From: Escherichia phage DK-13
DNA length: 64,000 bases
Sequence record: MT611523.1
Strand: one strand, 5' to 3'
This document shows positions 8,943 through 15,182 of the stretch, piece after piece. How positions within the stretch are numbered: the stretch's first letter is position 1; each line of letters opens with the position of its first letter. The position numbers and the translations under genes were made by a program. Under the pieces are notes generated by a model. The model was not told where the DNA came from and did no database searches. It worked only from the letters and a program-made list of their open reading frames with translations.

Positions 8943-11003
8943 CTACGAAAGGAATTTAGGAGGAATAGCTTCCAAATTAATACAACTAGCAAGAATACCA
9001 AGACCTTGATTGACTTTCTTCGTTACCCCAGAGGATGCAAACGATGCAAAGTCAACAGATTCTACTGGCTCTTCTGTTTCCTCGCCCTGATAAACGACAA
9101 GCTCACCAGTTTCCATCAACACATCACCATCATAGATAACTGCATTTTCATCCAGTTGGTCCGTAGTCTGGATATCAGCTTCCAGCATTTTGACGTTCGC
9201 GTTTCCTTGATACGAAGCATCAGTAATTTTGGTAATCTTAACTACAGTCCCACGAGGAAGAATAACTTCCTGCTCGGATGGGTTGCCTGACAATTCCCCA
9301 GGAACAATTACGTTAATTAAGTCCGCTCCAGAAATTTTCCAACCAACATGCATCATTACGTGTTCGCGGCGTGCTTCCGGCATATCTGGTAAAACAATTT
9401 CGTCATCAGCCTGGAAAGATGTCCCATCACGATAGTCCTGATGAACTGCAGCCATAGCAACGTTCGCCACCCAGCCACCAAAGATAATCGGTTTAAACGA
9501 CGTTGATACATAGTTCCTGAAATAAAATAATTTAGATTTCTTAATTTTATCAAATGTAGGAACGTTTAAATATTGACCACGCCAAAGAGTTGTATTAGGT
9601 GGCAACTTATGTCCAATTTCAAAGGCCGAATCCAATTCCTTAATTGTTTCGACAACTCTGTCTAGATTTAGGAATTCAGCTTCTTCTTCATAATATTTGC
9701 CCATCAAATAATTATTAATATCGGCATAGTTTGCTCCACAATAATCTGCAATTGCTTCTCGCTGACCATAATGGAAACGGTTGTCAGTATACCCTGCTGT
9801 GAAATTAAGAGTATTTTCTGATGCTTCTTCAGCAAAGTCTTTAACTGCAACACGAATGGCGCTTGTGTATTCTTTTTCCCAGAGCGAGGCTGCATAAGTG
9901 GCTGCATCCACGTTAGGAGGAGCATCATTCATTTTTCTTTCGATAAATGCGGCTTTGCGAAGGTTAAGAATCTCTGCACATGATTCGGCAAAAATCTGCA
10001 TCTGCTTCATACTACCAACTGGAGCACGTTTAAGTTCGCGATGCATACGGTTAAAAATTGGGTCAGAGTCTTCAACACGAATTTCTTCTTTCCAAACACC
10101 ATTTGCTCGCATAGCCGTATCTGCTGCGCGCATACGAGCCATAGTATTCGTTTCGGAAGGTCGAACAAAAATTTCCAGTTCTTCATAATCATCGATAAGT
10201 TCTGCCGTAGCCGGTCGGCTAAACTTAGCAGCTTCTGCATCGATTTCGTCCCAACCTTCTGGCACGGAATCACTTGGAGCGTACTGGGCTTGTGCAATAG
10301 CTCGGCGACTGATTTTAGTTTTCTGGGCAACAGCAGCATCGGTCTTTTTGTTTGCTGCGTCAATCAGAATCTCGGCTGCAATTTCTTGTTTGGATACTTG
10401 TGCACCATTATCTTTATTGGTGAATACATCACCAACTTTAGTTTCGACTTTTTTATATTTCTCAGGGACTGGTGGCATACCATCGACTGAAAGCAGGTCA
10501 ACACCCCTTTTGTACATAATTACATAAGCGTTCTTTTTACCAATGCCAGAAGCATTCGGAAGAACATGATAACGTCCGCTGGTTTTCATTTGAATCAGTC
10601 GATTCATAATACGAATAATAGCTTGGTCTTGTCCTTTCATCTTTTTGGATGGGAAACGGAACAAGACTACATCAGGTTTGCCTAGTTTAATGCTTTCCCA
10701 GACTGTAGTAAAAATCAAGTTAATTGCATCAAGAGGTTTTTCACCTAAACCACCCTTCAGAGGAACAGCATGACCGTGTGAAGTTCCGGATAACAGGAAT
10801 ACCTCGGCAATTGCATCGCCGCGTTTATATTGTTTAACTGTTTCTTTGCCCGTGAATTGCATCAAACGGGCCATAAGAGAATTGGTCCCAGGAACACCGA
10901 ATTGCCAAACCTGTGGGACCTTGTATTTTGGATTCATATTAATGACAGGATAACCGAAGGTTTCGATATATTTGTCAAAGAGTTCATTTAATTGTTCAGA
11001 CAT
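8943..11003 (-). CDS. alt: Alt-like ADP-ribosyltransferase (packaged, modifies host RNA polymerase)
   Basis: 686 aa (T4 Alt about 682), directly downstream of DNA ligase, own late promoter; identity by synteny/size. Confidence 0.75.
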   Translation of the reverse strand: MSEQLNELFDKYIETFGYPVINMNPKYKVPQVWQFGVPGTNSLMARLMQFTGKETVKQYKRGDAIAEVFLLSGTSHGHAVPLKGGLGEKPLDAINLIFTTVWESIKLGKPDVVLFRFPSKKMKGQDQAIIRIMNRLIQMKTSGRYHVLPNASGIGKKNAYVIMYKRGVDLLSVDGMPPVPEKYKKVETKVGDVFTNKDNGAQVSKQEIAAEILIDAANKKTDAAVAQKTKISRRAIAQAQYAPSDSVPEGWDEIDAEAAKFSRPATAELIDDYEELEIFVRPSETNTMARMRAADTAMRANGVWKEEIRVEDSDPIFNRMHRELKRAPVGSMKQMQIFAESCAEILNLRKAAFIERKMNDAPPNVDAATYAASLWEKEYTSAIRVAVKDFAEEASENTLNFTAGYTDNRFHYGQREAIADYCGANYADINNYLMGKYYEEEAEFLNLDRVVETIKELDSAFEIGHKLPPNTTLWRGQYLNVPTFDKIKKSKLFYFRNYVSTSFKPIIFGGWVANVAMAAVHQDYRDGTSFQADDEIVLPDMPEARREHVMMHVGWKISGADLINVIVPGELSGNPSEQEVILPRGTVVKITKITDASYQGNANVKMLEADIQTTDQLDENAVIYDGDVLMETGELVVYQGEETEEPVESVDFASFASSGVTKKVNQGLGILASCINLEAIPPKFLS

Positions 11004-11061: not shown

Positions 11062-12594
11062 TTATTTTAATCCAGTCTTTGACCAGTCGCCAAATACATC
11101 TTCGAATGTGTCTGCATGGTCTTTATCAAAACGGAACCCTTTAATAATCGGCAGGAACAATGCAACCGTATTATCTTTACGAGTCTCGGAAGTCAACCAA
11201 CCATTACATTCACAGTCGGCAATCATTCCAACCAATTCACCTTTACGTGCTTTAACCATCAAGGCTTCACGGTCCATTTCATGACGCTCCTCAATCGGAA
11301 TAGTAACCCATTTTTTGGTTTTCTTATCTTTGACTTGAGTTGTGTCTTTAAAACCAGAACCACAGTTATTCGTAATCTTACCACAAGAAGAACGAAGCAC
11401 CACACCGCCAATCTTATTCGGGTCTTTATCGTGCTCGTAATATCCAATGATTTCCATTGCAATGTCAATTACTTCTTTGAACTTATACAGGTTCTTTGAG
11501 CGCTTGTTTTCCCAAATCGATGCCATGTTTTTAAGGATAATACCTTCAAGGCCTTCATCTACATATTTCTTATAGATAACCTTCGCTTCATCGAGATTGT
11601 TAACAACATGGTTTTCAATCAGAATCATGCGGTCGAAACCATGTAGCACCACGTTATCTGCAATCATCTTTTCCAGAACAGCAAAACGCACATCATATTT
11701 CAGCGGATTGAGAATCTTAACATCAGAATAGACTTCAATCAGTGGAACATAATCCCAAACCTGGAATTTCATACAAGAAGCTTCTGCTGCAGAAATAGTT
11801 CCTTTCAATGATTTGTTTGCCAGACCATTTGAAAAGGTTCTTGATTCAGCAGTTTCTTTTGCAGGAGCAATCTCATCTGAATCGTCAAAAAGGAAGCCCA
11901 AACCGTCATTCTGGGGAGCTATTTTCTGTTCGTGATATACTAACTCGCCATCAATTAAAACGCCCTCAGGATGTCTCTCACGCGCTTCACGGGTGGCTTC
12001 AATCAATTCCTTCTTAAGGAGGTCAAGCTTGAGGTATTCGTTACCAGCTCGGGATAACAATCGAACATCATCCAACTCATCGCCACGAACTTCTGCAAAA
12101 CATCGGGCGCCGTCGGCTTTCAATTGTGCAAAGGCCGGGAACTTAATGTTCTTAGCAATGCCAGCTTCATCATAAGAAGAAGCGAGCATCTGCTGTTGTT
12201 CAGGAATTAAACCTTTCCAAACCTTATTCGCAATTGATACAGACGCACCACATTCCAGGTCACGCATCATCACGCGGCGCAAGACTTCAACATCTGCTTT
12301 TTTACCATCTGCAATATAGCCAGATAATTCCTCGATTGCAGCATTACCTGTTAATTTGCGCGCGGCTAATGTGAATTCTATAAAGTCAAGCATATCATCA
12401 ATATTCAACATGCCAAAGCTTTGAGACGTTGTACCAGGTTTAGGCCATTTCTTTATATAGAACTGGATGCCTTTGGAATATGTCAAACGATACACACGTT
12501 TGAGGGTTTCATTGTCAGAATACGATTCCAGAATAGCTTGTTTCTCTTTAGTGGAATCGGTTGCAGCAATTTCATTTAAAATATCTAAAATCAT
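11062..12594 (-). CDS. 30: ATP-dependent DNA ligase
   Basis: Near-identical to remembered T4 ligase over long stretches (ILNEIA..STK.KQAILE, KRVYRLTYS, IKKWPKPG, AFAQLKADGARCFAEVRGDELDDVRLLSRAGNEY, EGVLIDGELVYHEQ); start at third ATG of MIMILDIL. Confidence 0.95.
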   Translation of the reverse strand: MILDILNEIAATDSTKEKQAILESYSDNETLKRVYRLTYSKGIQFYIKKWPKPGTTSQSFGMLNIDDMLDFIEFTLAARKLTGNAAIEELSGYIADGKKADVEVLRRVMMRDLECGASVSIANKVWKGLIPEQQQMLASSYDEAGIAKNIKFPAFAQLKADGARCFAEVRGDELDDVRLLSRAGNEYLKLDLLKKELIEATREARERHPEGVLIDGELVYHEQKIAPQNDGLGFLFDDSDEIAPAKETAESRTFSNGLANKSLKGTISAAEASCMKFQVWDYVPLIEVYSDVKILNPLKYDVRFAVLEKMIADNVVLHGFDRMILIENHVVNNLDEAKVIYKKYVDEGLEGIILKNMASIWENKRSKNLYKFKEVIDIAMEIIGYYEHDKDPNKIGGVVLRSSCGKITNNCGSGFKDTTQVKDKKTKKWVTIPIEERHEMDREALMVKARKGELVGMIADCECNGWLTSETRKDNTVALFLPIIKGFRFDKDHADTFEDVFGDWSKTGLK

Positions 12595-12603
12595 AATCAC
12601 CTC

Positions 12604-12885
12604 TTAGTCGTTGGCTCTATTATATGCCACATCTTCCAAAAGCAAATCCAGACGCTTATGATAAGTGAACACAAATTTAGTCGCCCCATCCGGTTTCATT
12701 TTAGTCAGGAAGTGAACATAGATAAATCCTTGCTCAACACATTCCCGCCAGATTGGGTTATCCTTGGCCGGATTAATATCAAACGAGTAATTATGATTCA
12801 CATGACGAATAAACTGGTTAACATGACCGTAATCCATCGTGGTGGTTGGGCCACGGTCTGAAATAGTATGAACGACAAACATCAA
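12604..12885 (-). CDS. hypothetical protein
   Basis: 93-aa ORF, ATGA overlap with upstream gene stop. Confidence 0.5.
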   Translation of the reverse strand: MMFVVHTISDRGPTTTMDYGHVNQFIRHVNHNYSFDINPAKDNPIWRECVEQGFIYVHFLTKMKPDGATKFVFTYHKRLDLLLEDVAYNRAND

Positions 12886-13706
12886 TTACCCCCTTGTCCG
12901 CCGGTCGGTTGATTGTACCAATATTCAATGCCAGTACCTACACGCTGGCCATATTGATATGGATATGCTGGATTATATCCAGGAGTCCACGGTTGACCAG
13001 GCTGCCAGCCTTGTTGCATTTGTTGTTGAAGACGGCGAGTTTCACGAAACAGCTCATCCAGTTTACGGAGTTCATCTGGGGTGAATTCTGGTTTGACCGG
13101 TTCATCTTTGTGTTTCAGTTTAAGCTGTCCAGCAACATCGTCCCAGTTAAAAACTTTGGAAGCCGTCTTAGGAATAGCATCACGTTCGCCACGGGCCATC
13201 CAATAAACCGGGACTTCAAGGATTTCACTCGCATGGTCGCAATGGTGTGCAAGGTCATCAATATAACAAATGACATTATATTTGGTCTTCGCTTTCTGGA
13301 ATAACTCTTCTTTAGAGGCTGTATGGCCACACATCATCACTTCTTTAAATGCGCCAGGGAACAAAGCATTCAGGTTGAATTGACGATTCAGACGGGCATC
13401 AATGGAATCACCCAGAGCTGTAACGGCCACAAAATCATATTGCTCTTTGAGGTTATTAATAACCCTTAGCGCATCTGTGTAAGGAGACAAATAGCGAATA
13501 AAATCTGAACAGTTATATTTCTCAATCAACTGTGCTCCCAACTCTTCATCACAATTGAACAGTTTACCAGGGGTCACAAATTTTTCATCCTGAATCATCT
13601 TAAGGATATGTTCCAGGGGTAAATTATATTTTTGGGCGAAATAAGGCAAGCCAGACTGCCATGACAAACATACGCCATCAATATCTGTTAAAATAACGGG
13701 TTTCAT
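12882..13706 (-). CDS. HAD-superfamily phosphatase/nucleotidase-like protein with Q/G/P/Y-rich C-terminal tail
   Basis: N-terminal HAD motif I ILTDIDGV; C-terminal QQQMQQGWQPGQPWTPGYNPAYPYQYGQ...GGQGGN low-complexity tail. Confidence 0.55.
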   Translation of the reverse strand: MKPVILTDIDGVCLSWQSGLPYFAQKYNLPLEHILKMIQDEKFVTPGKLFNCDEELGAQLIEKYNCSDFIRYLSPYTDALRVINNLKEQYDFVAVTALGDSIDARLNRQFNLNALFPGAFKEVMMCGHTASKEELFQKAKTKYNVICYIDDLAHHCDHASEILEVPVYWMARGERDAIPKTASKVFNWDDVAGQLKLKHKDEPVKPEFTPDELRKLDELFRETRRLQQQMQQGWQPGQPWTPGYNPAYPYQYGQRVGTGIEYWYNQPTGGQGGN

Positions 13707-14170
13707 AATGCATCTCTCAATTGGTTAAGTATGTCAATAAATTCTTGTTCAGTCAATATTGTATCATGAACAGTAAGGTGGCTCGCCATCGAATGCTTTA
13801 AAACTTTGCCCTTTGTAGCTTGTAATGCGTCGCGGAACCCTTTGTTTTGGAGCGCTGCTTCAAAATAAACATTTGTATACAACTCTTTCCATGATGCAGA
13901 GTATCTTGAAAAGGGAATTCCAAGCCAGAAAAGCGTCCCACGGTCCGCAGCTCTTGCATAAGCTCTTCCACTTTGCTGGGCGGCCAATCCGGACATCCCA
14001 AATATACGTTTTTGTTGTTCATGATTTCTCACCTTACACCCTTGTAGGAAGCCTTCAAGACCTCCAAACTGGATGCCATCCATAACAAAAGGCCATTTAG
14101 CAAAGTTACTTAATGCACATGATGGCCATGGGAAATTGCTTCTGATTTCTAACTCAGACATCTTTGACAC
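13703..14170 (-). CDS. NADAR-like (YbiA/DUF1768-type) domain protein
   Basis: 155 aa; LSNFAKWPFVMDGIQFGGLEGFLQGCKV resembles the NADAR signature (SNF..PF..DG..F.S.E...Q..K); motif-level only. Confidence 0.5.
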   Translation of the reverse strand: MSKMSELEIRSNFPWPSCALSNFAKWPFVMDGIQFGGLEGFLQGCKVRNHEQQKRIFGMSGLAAQQSGRAYARAADRGTLFWLGIPFSRYSASWKELYTNVYFEAALQNKGFRDALQATKGKVLKHSMASHLTVHDTILTEQEFIDILNQLRDAL

Positions 14171-14366
14171 TTACTACATCAACGTTTGCCCAATGACCAT
14201 AACCAGGTAGACGGTCTTTAATAGATAATCCACCGTCAGATTTCAGCATTTTAATTGTTTTAGTATATGGTTCAATATTTCGGGCCCATGGACTCACGTC
14301 TGTTACGCGATAAGTAACTTCAACCATTTCTGTGCCCAAAATTTTCTGAATCAGTTTCTTAAACAT
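14154..14366 (-). CDS. hypothetical protein
   Basis: 70-aa ORF in operon-like tight packing. Confidence 0.45.
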   Translation of the reverse strand: MFKKLIQKILGTEMVEVTYRVTDVSPWARNIEPYTKTIKMLKSDGGLSIKDRLPGYGHWANVDVVSVKDV

Positions 14367-14947: not shown

Positions 14948-14977
14948 ATTATGCACTGGACAACCCCTGTTGTAAAC
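14948..14977 (-). promoter_or_regulatory. early promoter (GTTTACA, 17-nt spacer, CATAAT) directly downstream of terminator
   Basis: - strand GGGTTTACAACAGGGGTTGTCCAGTGCATAATGATTCCATACTGA; shares the 3' half CATAATGATTCCATACTGA with copies at 50092 and 53991. Confidence 0.5.
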
Positions 14978-14984
14978 CCTTTAT

Positions 14985-15016
14985 GGAAAATAAAAAAGGG
15001 ACTCCGAAGAGTCCCT
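14985..15016 (-). terminator. rho-independent terminator
   Basis: - strand GGGACTCTTCGGAGTCCC then TTTTTTATTTT, right after stop of the 15021..15182 ORF. Confidence 0.7.
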
Positions 15017-15020
15017 GAAC

Positions 15021-15182
15021 TTATGCTTTCGGCTTACCAAAGCAAGCTGCATCGGCACGCAATACCGCACGAGCACGAGCCTGAAGTTTATCAGTTACCT
15101 GATTGATTCGCTTGTTGGACGCACGCTTGTAACCAGCGCGTTTGGAGGAGCCATCAACAACTTTAACTTCTTTCTTAGCCAT
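15021..15182 (-). CDS. small basic protein (53 aa), not in ORF track
   Basis: ATG..TAA ORF MAKKEVKVVDGSSKRAGYKRASNKRINQVTDKLQARARAVLR...; weak SD; followed by terminator. Confidence 0.35.
   Translation of the reverse strand: MAKKEVKVVDGSSKRAGYKRASNKRINQVTDKLQARARAVLRADAACFGKPKA

What the first reader, a model, noticed from the sequence alone, without database searches (positions are those of the whole stretch)
12882..14170. NADAR-like protein and HAD-like phosphatase next to the Alt ADP-ribosyltransferase
The 155-aa ORF carries an NADAR/YbiA-like signature (SNF..PF..DG..F.S.E...Q..K). NADAR domains are predicted or shown to process ADP-ribose adducts, and I recall reports of ADP-ribosylated guanine in DNA being reversed. 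Beside it is a HAD-type hydrolase (ILTDIDGV). Both lie within about 3 kb of alt. A phage NADAR could counter host ADP-ribosylating defence such as DarT-type toxins, or feed NAD/ADP-ribose metabolism.
Basis: partly seen in the sequence, partly recalled or inferred. Interest (0 to 1): 0.5.

Follow-up and report, generated by a model that had tools for sequence, protein, structure and literature searches.

The report
Known phage anti-DarT NADAR plus HAD phosphatase

Summary
Both ORFs are real. The window is a T-even phage of the genus Gaprivervirus, with the standard T4 gene order alt-30-30.1-30.2-30.3-30.4.

**30.3 (NADAR).** The gene is 13703-14161 on the minus strand and encodes 152 aa from the ATG, not 155 aa from the GTG. 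It is 85% identical to T4 gp30.3, which is AdfN. It matches Pfam Phage_30_3 at E=5e-64. It keeps E36, K43, the phage-specific H123 and the C-terminal helix. Its model matches only NADAR structures. T4 AdfN is published as a guanine-ADP-ribose DNA glycohydrolase that defeats DarTG1.

**30.2 (HAD).** The gene is 12882-13706 on the minus strand and encodes 274 aa. It has a capped HAD fold with all four catalytic motifs invariant across its family. It is loosely similar to 5'(3')-deoxyribonucleotidases, and its substrate is unknown.

**No functional link.** I found no evidence tying 30.2 or alt to the NADAR. Only 17 of 80 NADAR loci carry 30.2 nearby and only 13 carry alt. In a published T4 transposon screen on DarTG1, 30.3 collapses (log2FC -7.25) while 30.2 (-0.12) and alt (-0.01) are unaffected.

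**Verdict.** Two things remain open: the substrate of gp30.2, and a mild DarTG1-specific depletion of the upstream gene 30.4.

The parts
13703..14161 (-). Gene 30.3 / adfN: 152-aa phage-type NADAR, a DNA guanine-ADP-ribose glycohydrolase. The mechanical ORF extends to the GTG at 14170.
   Evidence: Pfam PF08010 E=5e-64. 85% identity to T4 gp30.3 over 152 aa. AF2 pLDDT 95.6. Foldseek top three hits are YbiA 2b3w, PnNADAR 8bau and G. lovleyi NADAR 8bat. 27 of 90 relatives hit Pfam NADAR PF08719.
14054..14056 (-). Codon for E36, the catalytic glutamate of AdfN
   Evidence: GAA=E. Invariant in 90 relatives. E36A impairs T4 AdfN (PMC11825919).
14033..14035 (-). Codon for K43, the catalytic lysine of AdfN
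   Evidence: AAG=K. At least 90% conserved. K43A impairs T4 AdfN.
13793..13795 (-). Codon for H123, the histidine that replaces the YbiA-type glutamate and marks phage (gp30.3) NADARs
   Evidence: CAT=H. Invariant. It follows the last strand, E120-122, in the model. The hallmark is described in PMC11125620 and PMC11543638.
13703..13750 (-). C-terminal helix of AdfN (residues about 138-151) plus stop codon. It is intact here; its loss inactivates the RB69 allele.
   Evidence: Helix H138-151 in the model. The protein ends ...EQEFIDILNQLRDAL* at full length.
12882..13706 (-). Gene 30.2: 274-aa C1-capped HAD-superfamily phosphatase of unknown substrate. Its start overlaps the 30.3 stop by 4 nt (ATGA).
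13677..13685 (-). HAD motif I, D8-I-D10: the nucleophile Asp and the general acid/base Asp
   Evidence: Codons verified. Both invariant in 108 relatives.
13419..13421 (-). HAD motif II, T96
   Evidence: At least 90% conserved.
13311..13313 (-). HAD motif III, K132
   Evidence: Invariant.
13254..13259 (-). HAD motif IV, D150-D151 (Mg2+ ligands)
   Evidence: Both invariant.
12885..13109 (-). gp30.2 C-terminal extension (residues about 200-274): a helix at 210-232, then a Q/G/P/Y-rich disordered tail ending in the conserved motif GTGIEYWYNQPT
   Evidence: pLDDT falls to 52-74 after residue 235. The tail is absent in about half of the family. The GTGIEY..QPT motif is shared with T4 and with Klebsiella and Enterobacter T4-like phages.
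14154..14366 (-). Gene 30.4 (70 aa, unknown function), immediately upstream of adfN and overlapping it. Context only.
   Evidence: phrog_2042 E=6e-33. In T4 it is the only other DarTG1-conditional gene (log2FC -1.79, adjusted p 0.014). It is restricted to T-even phages, in 717 records.
12604..12882 (-). Gene 30.1 (DUF3045). Its start overlaps the 30.2 stop by 1 nt (TGATG). Context only.
   Evidence: Pfam PF11243 E=1.7e-18. Sequence.
8943..11003 (-). alt, the packaged protein ADP-ribosyltransferase. Context only; no functional link to 30.2 or 30.3 was found.
   Evidence: Pfam PF03496 E=1.2e-19. alt lies near the NADAR in only 13 of 80 loci. T4 alt log2FC is -0.01 on DarTG1.

Best explanation
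The region holds two adjacent but functionally independent early genes of a T-even phage.

**Gene 30.3 (13703-14161, minus strand).** This is the orthologue of T4 adfN. It encodes a stand-alone NADAR-fold N-glycosidase. When the host DarT1 toxin of a DarTG1 system ADP-ribosylates guanines in phage DNA to block replication, the enzyme hydrolyses the guanine-ribose bond. That releases ADP-ribose and restores unmodified DNA. It uses E36, K43 and the phage-specific H123, and needs its C-terminal helix. It is in effect an orphan DarG1-like antitoxin carried by the phage. The identity, fold and residues are shown here. The chemistry and the anti-DarTG1 role are shown in the literature for the T4 protein, which is 85% identical, and are inferred for this allele.

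**Gene 30.2 (12882-13706, minus strand).** This is a Mg2+-dependent HAD phosphomonoesterase with a helical C1 cap. That architecture is typical of small-molecule phosphatases. The most likely substrate class is a (deoxy)nucleoside monophosphate or a similar small phosphoester. The fold and catalytic motifs are shown here. The substrate and role are inferred and remain unknown.

**Arrangement.** The closeness of the two genes to each other and to alt is conserved T-even gene order. It is not a functional module.
For: **Phage identity.** The nucleotide sequence is 94-97% identical to Gaprivervirus phages, and the gene order is the same as in T4.

**gp30.3**
- Pfam Phage_30_3 at E=5e-64.
- 85% identity to T4 AdfN.
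- E36 and H123 are invariant and K43 is at least 90% conserved in 90 relatives.
- The AF2 model has pLDDT 95.6.
- The only meaningful Foldseek PDB hits are the three NADAR structures, with probability 1.00 each.
- The family profile hits YbiA at E=0.031.
- 27 of 90 relatives hit Pfam NADAR, best E=1.5e-7.

**Published function of T4 gp30.3/AdfN**
- In vitro removal of ADP-ribose from guanine (PMC11125620).
- Genetic necessity and sufficiency against DarTG1, impaired E36A and K43A mutants, and reduced activity without the C-terminal helix (PMC11825919).
- Transposon screen log2FC -7.25 on DarTG1.

**gp30.2**
- D8, D10, K132, D150 and D151 are invariant and T96 is at least 90% conserved in 108 relatives.
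- The model has pLDDT above 90 over residues 1-200, with helices at 16-86 inserted straight after motif I, which is a C1 cap.
- NT5C is the Pfam family hit by the most relatives, 25 of 108, all below threshold.

**Independence of the two genes**
- Only 17 of 80 NADAR loci have 30.2 within 6 kb, and only 13 have alt.
- No neighbouring gene family is shared by more than 17 of the 80 loci.
- T4 30.2 log2FC is -0.12 on DarTG1, 0.00 on DarTG2 and -0.10 in LB versus M9. alt is -0.01 on DarTG1.
Against: - This particular allele has not been assayed. It differs from T4 AdfN at 23 of 152 positions.
- The window protein itself does not reach Pfam NADAR PF08719. The link is through relatives, the profile and the fold.
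- T4 AdfN fails to neutralise DarT1 in uninfected cells and only partly rescues non-T-even phages. The mechanism therefore has an unidentified T-even-specific component.
- For gp30.2, no Pfam or NCBIfam model reaches threshold.
- No phenotype is known for gp30.2 under any tested condition, so the nucleotidase assignment is a best guess.
- 30.2 and 30.3 do co-occur at genome level across about 1,450-1,500 T4-like phage records, with near-identical host distributions. In T-evens they are translationally overlapped. Some shared selective context cannot be excluded.
Confidence: 0.88

Rival explanations
1. gp30.2 and gp30.3 form a two-enzyme module. The HAD phosphatase either processes a product or cofactor of the NADAR reaction, or it is the unidentified T-even factor that AdfN needs for full activity.
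For: The 30.3 stop and 30.2 start overlap by 4 nt (ATGA), and adjacency is conserved in all close T-even relatives. Both genes occur in about 1,450-1,500 phage records with matching host distributions. PMC11825919 states that an unknown T-even factor is required.
Against: In the T4 transposon screen on DarTG1, 30.2 shows log2FC -0.12 (p=0.61, 71 sites) against -7.25 for 30.3. Only 17 of 80 NADAR loci have 30.2 within 6 kb. AdfN alone removes ADP-ribose from DNA in vitro. The product, ADP-ribose, is not a phosphomonoester, so it is not a natural substrate for a HAD phosphatase.
Confidence: 0.05
2. The NADAR acts like E. coli YbiA. On this reading it is a housekeeping N-glycosidase on riboflavin-pathway or NAD-derived small molecules, and the HAD gene is a companion phosphatase.
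For: YbiA is the best structural and sequence match in the PDB. There is a weak NCBIfam hit to the riboflavin-intermediate N-glycosidase domain, E=0.056, 13.7 bits against a cut-off of 73.7. One gp30.2 relative is labelled FMN phosphatase YigB by JGI.
Against: The YbiA-defining glutamate is replaced by histidine in the whole phage family. The T4 orthologue has a specific, strong DarTG1 phenotype and DNA de-ADP-ribosylation activity. Neither 30.2 nor 30.3 shows a phenotype in minimal medium.
Confidence: 0.03
3. The NADAR is functionally tied to the phage's own ADP-ribosyltransferase Alt. It would erase or proof-read ADP-ribose placed by Alt, which would explain why the two genes lie within 3 kb.
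For: The two genes are close in this window and in T4.
Against: alt lies within 6 kb of the NADAR gene in only 13 of 80 loci. The T4 record describes Alt as a mono-ADP-ribosyltransferase delivered with the infecting DNA, and established knowledge has it modifying arginine on host proteins. Tested NADARs act on guanine and not even on thymine adducts. alt insertions have no DarTG1 phenotype, log2FC -0.01.
Confidence: 0.02
4. gp30.2 is a nucleic-acid end-healing 3'-phosphatase, like the HAD domain of T4 polynucleotide kinase. It would work with the neighbouring DNA ligase gp30 in repair.
Against: gp30.2 has a roughly 70-residue helical C1 cap over the active site. From established knowledge, the Pnkp phosphatase and other macromolecule-directed HAD enzymes lack a cap. 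T-even phages already encode PseT.
Confidence: 0.08

Closest known systems
T4 gp30.3 = AdfN (anti-DarT factor NADAR); Pfam PF08010 Phage_30_3
   Same: It is the orthologue: 85% identity over the full 152 aa. It occupies the same position between 30.4 and 30.2, with the same overlapping start and stop codons. It has the same E36, K43 and H123 and an intact C-terminal helix.
   Different: 23 substitutions, none at the known catalytic positions. This Gaprivervirus allele has not itself been tested.
DarG1, the NADAR antitoxin of DarTG1 (for example G. lovleyi NADAR, PDB 8bat)
   Same: Same fold (Foldseek probability 1.00). By the T4 data it carries out the same reaction, removing ADP-ribose from guanine in DNA.
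   Different: There is no adjacent DarT toxin, so it is an orphan. It lacks the N-terminal extension. It has His where DarG1 has the catalytic Asp. T4 AdfN does not neutralise DarT1 in uninfected cells.
E. coli YbiA (PDB 2b3w), NADAR/YbiA subfamily
   Same: It is the best structural match (E=2.4e-5, TM 0.62-0.68, 19% identity) and the only sequence-level PDB hit. It shares the SNF...W/P...DG...E...Q..K block.
   Different: YbiA is a housekeeping N-glycosidase for riboflavin intermediates, with Glu at the position where the phage family has His. It gives no DarT1 protection.
5'(3')-deoxyribonucleotidases cdN/mdN and the S. epidermidis NT5C-like protein 3bwv (Pfam PF06941 NT5C). The phage precedent is the PBS1 dTMP phosphatase (PMC12697855).

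Membership tests
Phage NADAR (gp30.3/AdfN family, PF08010) within the NADAR superfamily | Match to the family HMM above the curated cut-off | tested here: met
   PF08010 at 214.7 bits against a cut-off of 36, E=5e-64, covering profile positions 2-138 of 138.
Phage NADAR (gp30.3/AdfN family, PF08010) within the NADAR superfamily | NADAR fold | tested here: met
   AF2 pLDDT 95.6, pTM 0.89. The top three Foldseek PDB hits are YbiA, P. nicotianae NADAR with ADP-ribose bound, and G. lovleyi NADAR, each at probability 1.00. The next hit has E=2.9.
Phage NADAR (gp30.3/AdfN family, PF08010) within the NADAR superfamily | Catalytic Glu and Lys (T4 E36 and K43) | tested here: met
   Both are present in the motif LEGFLQGCK. 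E36 is invariant and K43 is at least 90% conserved in 90 relatives. Their role was established by mutagenesis in T4.
Phage NADAR (gp30.3/AdfN family, PF08010) within the NADAR superfamily | Histidine in or just after the last strand, replacing the Glu of YbiA and the Asp of DarG1 | tested here: met
   H123 is invariant and follows strand 120-122 in the model. The criterion comes from PMC11125620 and PMC11543638.
Phage NADAR (gp30.3/AdfN family, PF08010) within the NADAR superfamily | Sequence-level link to the general NADAR model PF08719 | tested here: inconclusive
   The window protein itself gives no PF08719 hit at E<=0.1. 27 of 90 family members do, best E=1.5e-7. The family profile hits YbiA at E=0.031.
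Phage NADAR (gp30.3/AdfN family, PF08010) within the NADAR superfamily | Full-length C-terminal helix, which is lost in the inactive RB69 allele | tested here: met
   The ORF runs to ...ILNQLRDAL* and aligns to the last residue of T4 AdfN. Helix 138-151 is present in the model.
Phage NADAR (gp30.3/AdfN family, PF08010) within the NADAR superfamily | Hydrolysis of guanine-linked ADP-ribose on DNA, and protection from DarTG1 | not testable with these tools
   This is shown only for the T4 orthologue and inferred here from 85% identity.
DarTG1 toxin-antitoxin system | A NADAR gene encoded next to a DarT1 ADP-ribosyltransferase toxin | tested here: not met
   The flanking genes are 30.4 (phrog_2042) and 30.2 (HAD). 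The only ART domain nearby is Alt, an exoenzyme-type protein ART. The gene is an orphan and not a TA system.
HAD (haloacid dehalogenase-like) superfamily phosphatases | Rossmannoid HAD core fold | tested here: met
HAD (haloacid dehalogenase-like) superfamily phosphatases | Motif I DxDx(T/V), with the second Asp that marks phosphatases and mutases rather than dehalogenases | tested here: met
   D8-I-D10-G-V, with D8 and D10 invariant in 108 relatives.
HAD (haloacid dehalogenase-like) superfamily phosphatases | Motif II Thr/Ser, motif III Lys, motif IV DD | tested here: met
   T96 is at least 90% conserved. K132, D150 and D151 are invariant.
HAD (haloacid dehalogenase-like) superfamily phosphatases | Match to a curated HAD HMM above its cut-off | tested here: not met
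   The best hit is HAD_2 at E=0.12, 12.9 bits against a cut-off of 23.8. There are no NCBIfam hits. Membership therefore rests on fold and motifs, not on an existing HMM.
NT5C-type 5'(3')-deoxyribonucleotidases (PF06941) | Match to the NT5C HMM above its cut-off | tested here: not met
   There is no hit for the window protein. 25 of 108 relatives give sub-threshold hits, best E=0.002.
NT5C-type 5'(3')-deoxyribonucleotidases (PF06941) | A C1 helical cap carrying aromatic residues that stack on the base | tested here: inconclusive
   A C1 cap is present, with helices at 16-86. W16, F43 and Y64 are conserved and align to F, F and Y of mouse cdN in the HMMER alignment. That these cdN residues stack on the base is from my memory; a literature search did not confirm it.
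NT5C-type 5'(3')-deoxyribonucleotidases (PF06941) | Structurally closer to NT5C than to other HAD families | tested here: inconclusive
NT5C-type 5'(3')-deoxyribonucleotidases (PF06941) | dNMP phosphatase activity | not testable with these tools
   No biochemical data exist for gp30.2. No paper in the library contains 'gp30.2'.

The most novel reading that the evidence does not exclude
The block around adfN may be more than one enzyme. The small upstream gene 30.4 (14154-14366) overlaps the adfN start and is confined to the same T-even clade. In T4 it is the only other gene significantly depleted on DarTG1, with log2FC -1.79 and adjusted p 0.014, and it shows no effect on DarTG2 or in minimal medium. 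It could be the unidentified T-even-specific factor that AdfN needs for full activity, rather than a polar effect on adfN. Separately, gp30.2 could be a nucleotide-directed phosphatase with a counter-defence or nucleotide-pool role that has not been discovered, tethered through its conserved C-terminal GTGIEY..QPT motif.
Probability: 0.15. Interest if true: 0.55.

Novelty: already known. Interest (0 to 1): 0.15.

Why it matters
The main point is settled in the literature. Phage NADARs of the gp30.3 family (AdfN) remove ADP-ribose from guanine and defeat DarTG1. This window adds one more orthologue with all functional residues intact.

The practical value is in annotation. The listed phage records label both 30.3 and 30.2 'hypothetical protein', apart from a few HAD labels on 30.2. 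They could be annotated as 'AdfN, anti-DarTG1 NADAR DNA ADP-ribosylglycohydrolase' and 'HAD-family phosphatase'.

gp30.2 is still open. It is a near-core gene of T4-like phages, found in about 1,440 records, and is catalytically intact. It has no known substrate, and it shows no phenotype in any of the T4 screen comparisons read here.

Tried and rejected
- **HMM searches for gp30.2.** Pfam and NCBIfam gave nothing above threshold. Scanning all 108 relatives gave only sub-threshold NT5C, Hydrolase and HAD_2 hits.
- **PDB sequence searches.** Single-sequence and profile searches gave only weak hits: YbiA at E=1.2 and 0.031, and cdN at E=0.33 and 0.47.
- The first job was rejected because the alignment contained the T4 sequence. 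I rebuilt the alignments without it.
- **A conserved partner of phage NADARs.** I clustered all ORFs within 2.5 kb of the NADAR gene in 80 viral loci. No family occurs in more than 17 loci, and those are the T-even relatives only. I therefore rejected a general NADAR-HAD or NADAR-Alt module.
- **gp30.2 as the AdfN helper.** I rejected this on the T4 transposon data.
- **Literature.** No paper contains 'gp30.2'. A search for '30.2' with 'phage T4' and 'HAD' gave nothing relevant except a phage NT5C-like dTMP phosphatase precedent. A search to confirm the cdN base-stacking residues found nothing.
- **Bacterial relative.** The look-up of genomic context for the PF08010 protein from Methylocystis (P0053) failed.
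- **Promoter scan.** Promoter-like sites were no more frequent than in shuffled sequence, 13 against 13.6. I make no transcription-unit claim beyond one strong terminator-like hairpin.
- **Apparent truncation.** Many relatives match only residues 1-144 in tblastn. Gene extraction in the close relatives I checked showed full-length 459-nt genes, so this is alignment trimming and not truncation.
Full report
**Where we are.** The window is a T-even phage genome. The 1.9-kb stretch around the finding is 94-97% identical to Escherichia and Shigella phages such as TH41, UPEC01, vB_EcoM_VR20 and SP18. SP18 is classified in Straboviridae; Tevenvirinae; Gaprivervirus. On the minus strand the gene order is alt (8943-11003), DNA ligase 30 (11062-12600), 30.1, 30.2, 30.3, 30.4, 30.5, 30.6 ... 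31 ... cd. This is the order in T4 itself.

**Checking the observation.** Both ORFs exist at the stated coordinates.
- The 155-aa ORF is the mechanical GTG-to-stop reading. The biological start is the ATG at 14161, giving 152 aa. It overlaps the 30.4 stop by 8 nt (ATGTCTGA). T4 and SP18 are annotated the same way.
It matches once a single extra residue of spacing is allowed, as SNFAKWPFVMDGIQFGGLEGFLQGCK. The 'S' before the Glu belongs to E. coli YbiA, not to this protein.
- ILTDIDGV is present at residues 5-12 of the 274-aa ORF.
- alt lies about 1.9 kb from 30.2 and about 2.7 kb from 30.3.

**The NADAR-like gene is 30.3/adfN.**
- The protein matches Pfam PF08010 (Phage_30_3) at E=5e-64.
- It is 85% identical over its whole length to T4 gp30.3.
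- In an alignment of 90 relatives, E36, H123 and eleven other positions are invariant, and K43 is at least 90% conserved.
- The AlphaFold2 model is very confident: pLDDT 95.6, pTM 0.89.
- Its only meaningful matches among solved structures are the three NADAR structures. They are E. coli YbiA (E=2.4e-5), Phytophthora NADAR with ADP-ribose, and the Geobacter lovleyi DarT1-associated NADAR, each at probability 1.00. The next hit has E=2.9.
- At the sequence level the link is weak for this protein alone: YbiA at E=1.2, or 0.031 with the family profile. It is firm through relatives, because 27 of 90 hit Pfam NADAR PF08719, best E=1.5e-7.

**What is already known about this family.**
- The phage gp30.3 proteins were recognised bioinformatically as a NADAR subfamily. 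In them a histidine replaces the glutamate of YbiA-type and the aspartate of DarT-associated NADARs (PMC11543638 and PMC11125620). That histidine is H123 here.
- T4 gp30.3 hydrolyses ADP-ribose from guanine, not thymine, in vitro (PMC11125620).
- Johannesman et al. (Nat Commun 2025, PMC11825919) renamed it AdfN. They showed that it is necessary and sufficient for T-even resistance to DarTG1. E36A and K43A impair it. The RB69 allele lacks the last 15 residues, the C-terminal helix, and that loss explains RB69's sensitivity.
- A T4 transposon screen (bioRxiv 10.1101/2025.11.20.689424) found 30.3 insertions lost on a DarTG1 host, log2FC -7.25.
- The window's allele has E36, K43, H123 and a full C-terminal helix. 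I therefore infer the same activity.

**The HAD-like gene is 30.2.**
- The protein is 66% identical to T4 gp30.2. The first 190 or so residues are much more conserved than the rest.
- It belongs to PHROG 420, of unknown function, and reaches no Pfam or NCBIfam threshold.
- In 108 relatives the four HAD motifs are conserved. D8 and D10 (motif I, DxD), K132 (motif III) and D150-D151 (motif IV) are invariant, and T96 (motif II) is at least 90% conserved.
- The model is confident over residues 1-200. It shows a Rossmann-like core with a helical insertion at residues 16-86 directly after motif I, which is a C1 cap.
- Foldseek returns 103 HAD structures at E<=1e-3. NT5C-type 5'(3')-deoxyribonucleotidases are among the top hits and have the lowest rmsd: mouse and human cdN, mdN, and S. 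epidermidis 3bwv.
- At the sequence level, mouse cdN is the only HAD-fold chain among the three weak PDB sequence hits. In that alignment the conserved W16, F43 and Y64 pair with aromatic residues of cdN.
- NT5C is the Pfam family that most relatives touch, 25 of 108, all below threshold.
- A DxD motif with a C1 cap points to a phosphatase acting on a small molecule. A nucleoside monophosphate is my best guess, at roughly even odds.
- There is a precedent for phage NT5C-like nucleotidases in the PBS1 dTMP phosphatase (PMC12697855).
- Nothing has been published on gp30.2.

**Is there a functional link between 30.2, 30.3 and alt?** I tested this in three ways.
1. *Synteny.* Among 80 viral contigs encoding a gp30.3 relative, only 17 have a gp30.2 relative within 6 kb and only 13 have alt. 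These are the close T-even relatives plus a few others. Clustering every ORF within 2.5 kb of the NADAR found no neighbour family shared by more than 17 loci.
2. *Genome-level occurrence.* gp30.3 relatives occur in 1,509 phage records and gp30.2 relatives in 1,438, with near-identical host distributions. Both are near-core genes of T4-like phages, so their co-occurrence carries little information.
3. *Published genetics in T4.* On a DarTG1 host exactly two genes are significant: 30.3 (log2FC -7.25) and 30.4 (-1.79, adjusted p 0.014).
   - 30.2 is unaffected (-0.12, p=0.61, 71 insertion sites).
   - alt is also unaffected (-0.01).
   - 30.2 shows no effect on DarTG2 (0.00) or in minimal versus rich medium (-0.10). 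It is fully dispensable on K-12, with 72 of 72 sites hit.

I conclude that the arrangement is inherited T-even gene order. gp30.2 is not the helper that AdfN is reported to need.

**Mechanism, with what is shown and what is inferred.**
- Shown here: gene identities, folds, catalytic residues, gene overlaps and synteny statistics.
- Shown in the literature for the T4 orthologue: DarT1 ADP-ribosylates guanine in phage DNA, and AdfN removes the adduct enzymatically without binding the toxin. AdfN is specific for guanine adducts and works fully only during T-even infection.
- Inferred: this allele does the same, and gp30.2 is an active Mg2+-dependent phosphomonoesterase on a small, probably nucleotide-like, substrate with a role unrelated to DarTG1.

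**Rivals.** I weighed four alternatives and gave each low confidence, for the reasons listed in their entries:
- a NADAR-HAD module;
- a YbiA-like metabolic role;
- an Alt-erasing role;
- a DNA end-healing 3'-phosphatase role for gp30.2.

**Novelty and score.** The central claim is already known. It was bioinformatic from 2012 to 2023, biochemical in 2024, and genetic in 2025. A specialist would not be surprised, so interest is low.

Three things remain open:
- the substrate and role of gp30.2;
- the function of its variable tail with a conserved GTGIEY..QPT end;
- whether the DarTG1-specific depletion of 30.4 is polarity on adfN or marks the missing T-even potentiating factor. 30.4 is confined to the same clade, with 717 records against about 727 records carrying a T4-type AdfN at 80% identity or more.

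Noticed in passing
window 14154-14366 (minus strand), gene 30.4: This 70-aa gene of unknown function overlaps the adfN start by 8 nt. In the published T4 transposon screen it is the only gene besides 30.3 that is significantly depleted on DarTG1 (log2FC -1.79, adjusted p 0.014). It shows no effect on DarTG2 (-0.03) or in LB versus M9 (-0.05). It is restricted to T-even phages, in 717 records, about the same set that carries a T4-type AdfN. This is either a polar effect on adfN or a candidate for the unknown T-even factor AdfN needs.
   Followed up: partly
window 13798-14022 (minus strand), inside gene 30.3 in the +1 frame: This 74-aa overlapping ORF corresponds to T4 30.3', annotated there as an internal out-of-frame translation. 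The frame is open in all 14 T-even relatives I checked, but in 3 of them the first 21 or so codons are lost. Its sequence diverges much faster than 30.3 does. Evidence that it codes for a protein is weak.
   Followed up: partly
window 12885-13109 (minus strand), gp30.2 residues about 200-274: A variable C-terminal extension: a confident helix at 210-232, then a Q/G/P/Y-rich disordered stretch ending in a conserved GTGIEY(L/W)xxQPT motif. The motif is shared by T4 and by Klebsiella, Enterobacter and Salmonella T4-like phages. About half of the family, including Acinetobacter and several Serratia and Citrobacter phages, has no tail at all. It looks like a short docking motif with an unknown partner.
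   Followed up: partly
window 14997-15016 (minus strand) and 14948-14976: A strong terminator-like hairpin (AGGGACTC-TTCG-GAGTCCCT followed by a T run) lies after the small ORF 15021-15182. A promoter-like site (10 of 12 matches) follows it, just upstream of 30.6. This may mark the start of the 30.6-to-30 transcription unit. Promoter-like sites in the region as a whole are not above chance.
   Followed up: no
protein P0053, Methylocystis bryophila chromosome, 4.5-Mb contig: A phage-type (PF08010) NADAR, 40% identical to the window protein, sits in a bacterial chromosome. It could lie in a prophage or be a stand-alone bacterial copy. The context look-up returned nothing.
   Followed up: no
loci L005-L009, L012 and L016 (relatives), downstream of alt: Several T-even relatives carry two tandem alt paralogues next to each other. 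I found only one full-length alt (8943-11003) between 9000 and 18500 in this window, and T4 has one plus the alt.-1 and alt.-2 remnants.
   Followed up: no
window 12594-12606 and 12880-12885 (minus strand): The mechanical ORF starts of ligase (GTG at 12600) and of 30.1 (TTG at 12885) are probably wrong. The likely starts are the ATG at 12594 (MILDILNEIA, preceded by GAGG) and the ATG at 12882 (MFVVHT), which overlaps the 30.2 stop by 1 nt as in T4.
   Followed up: partly
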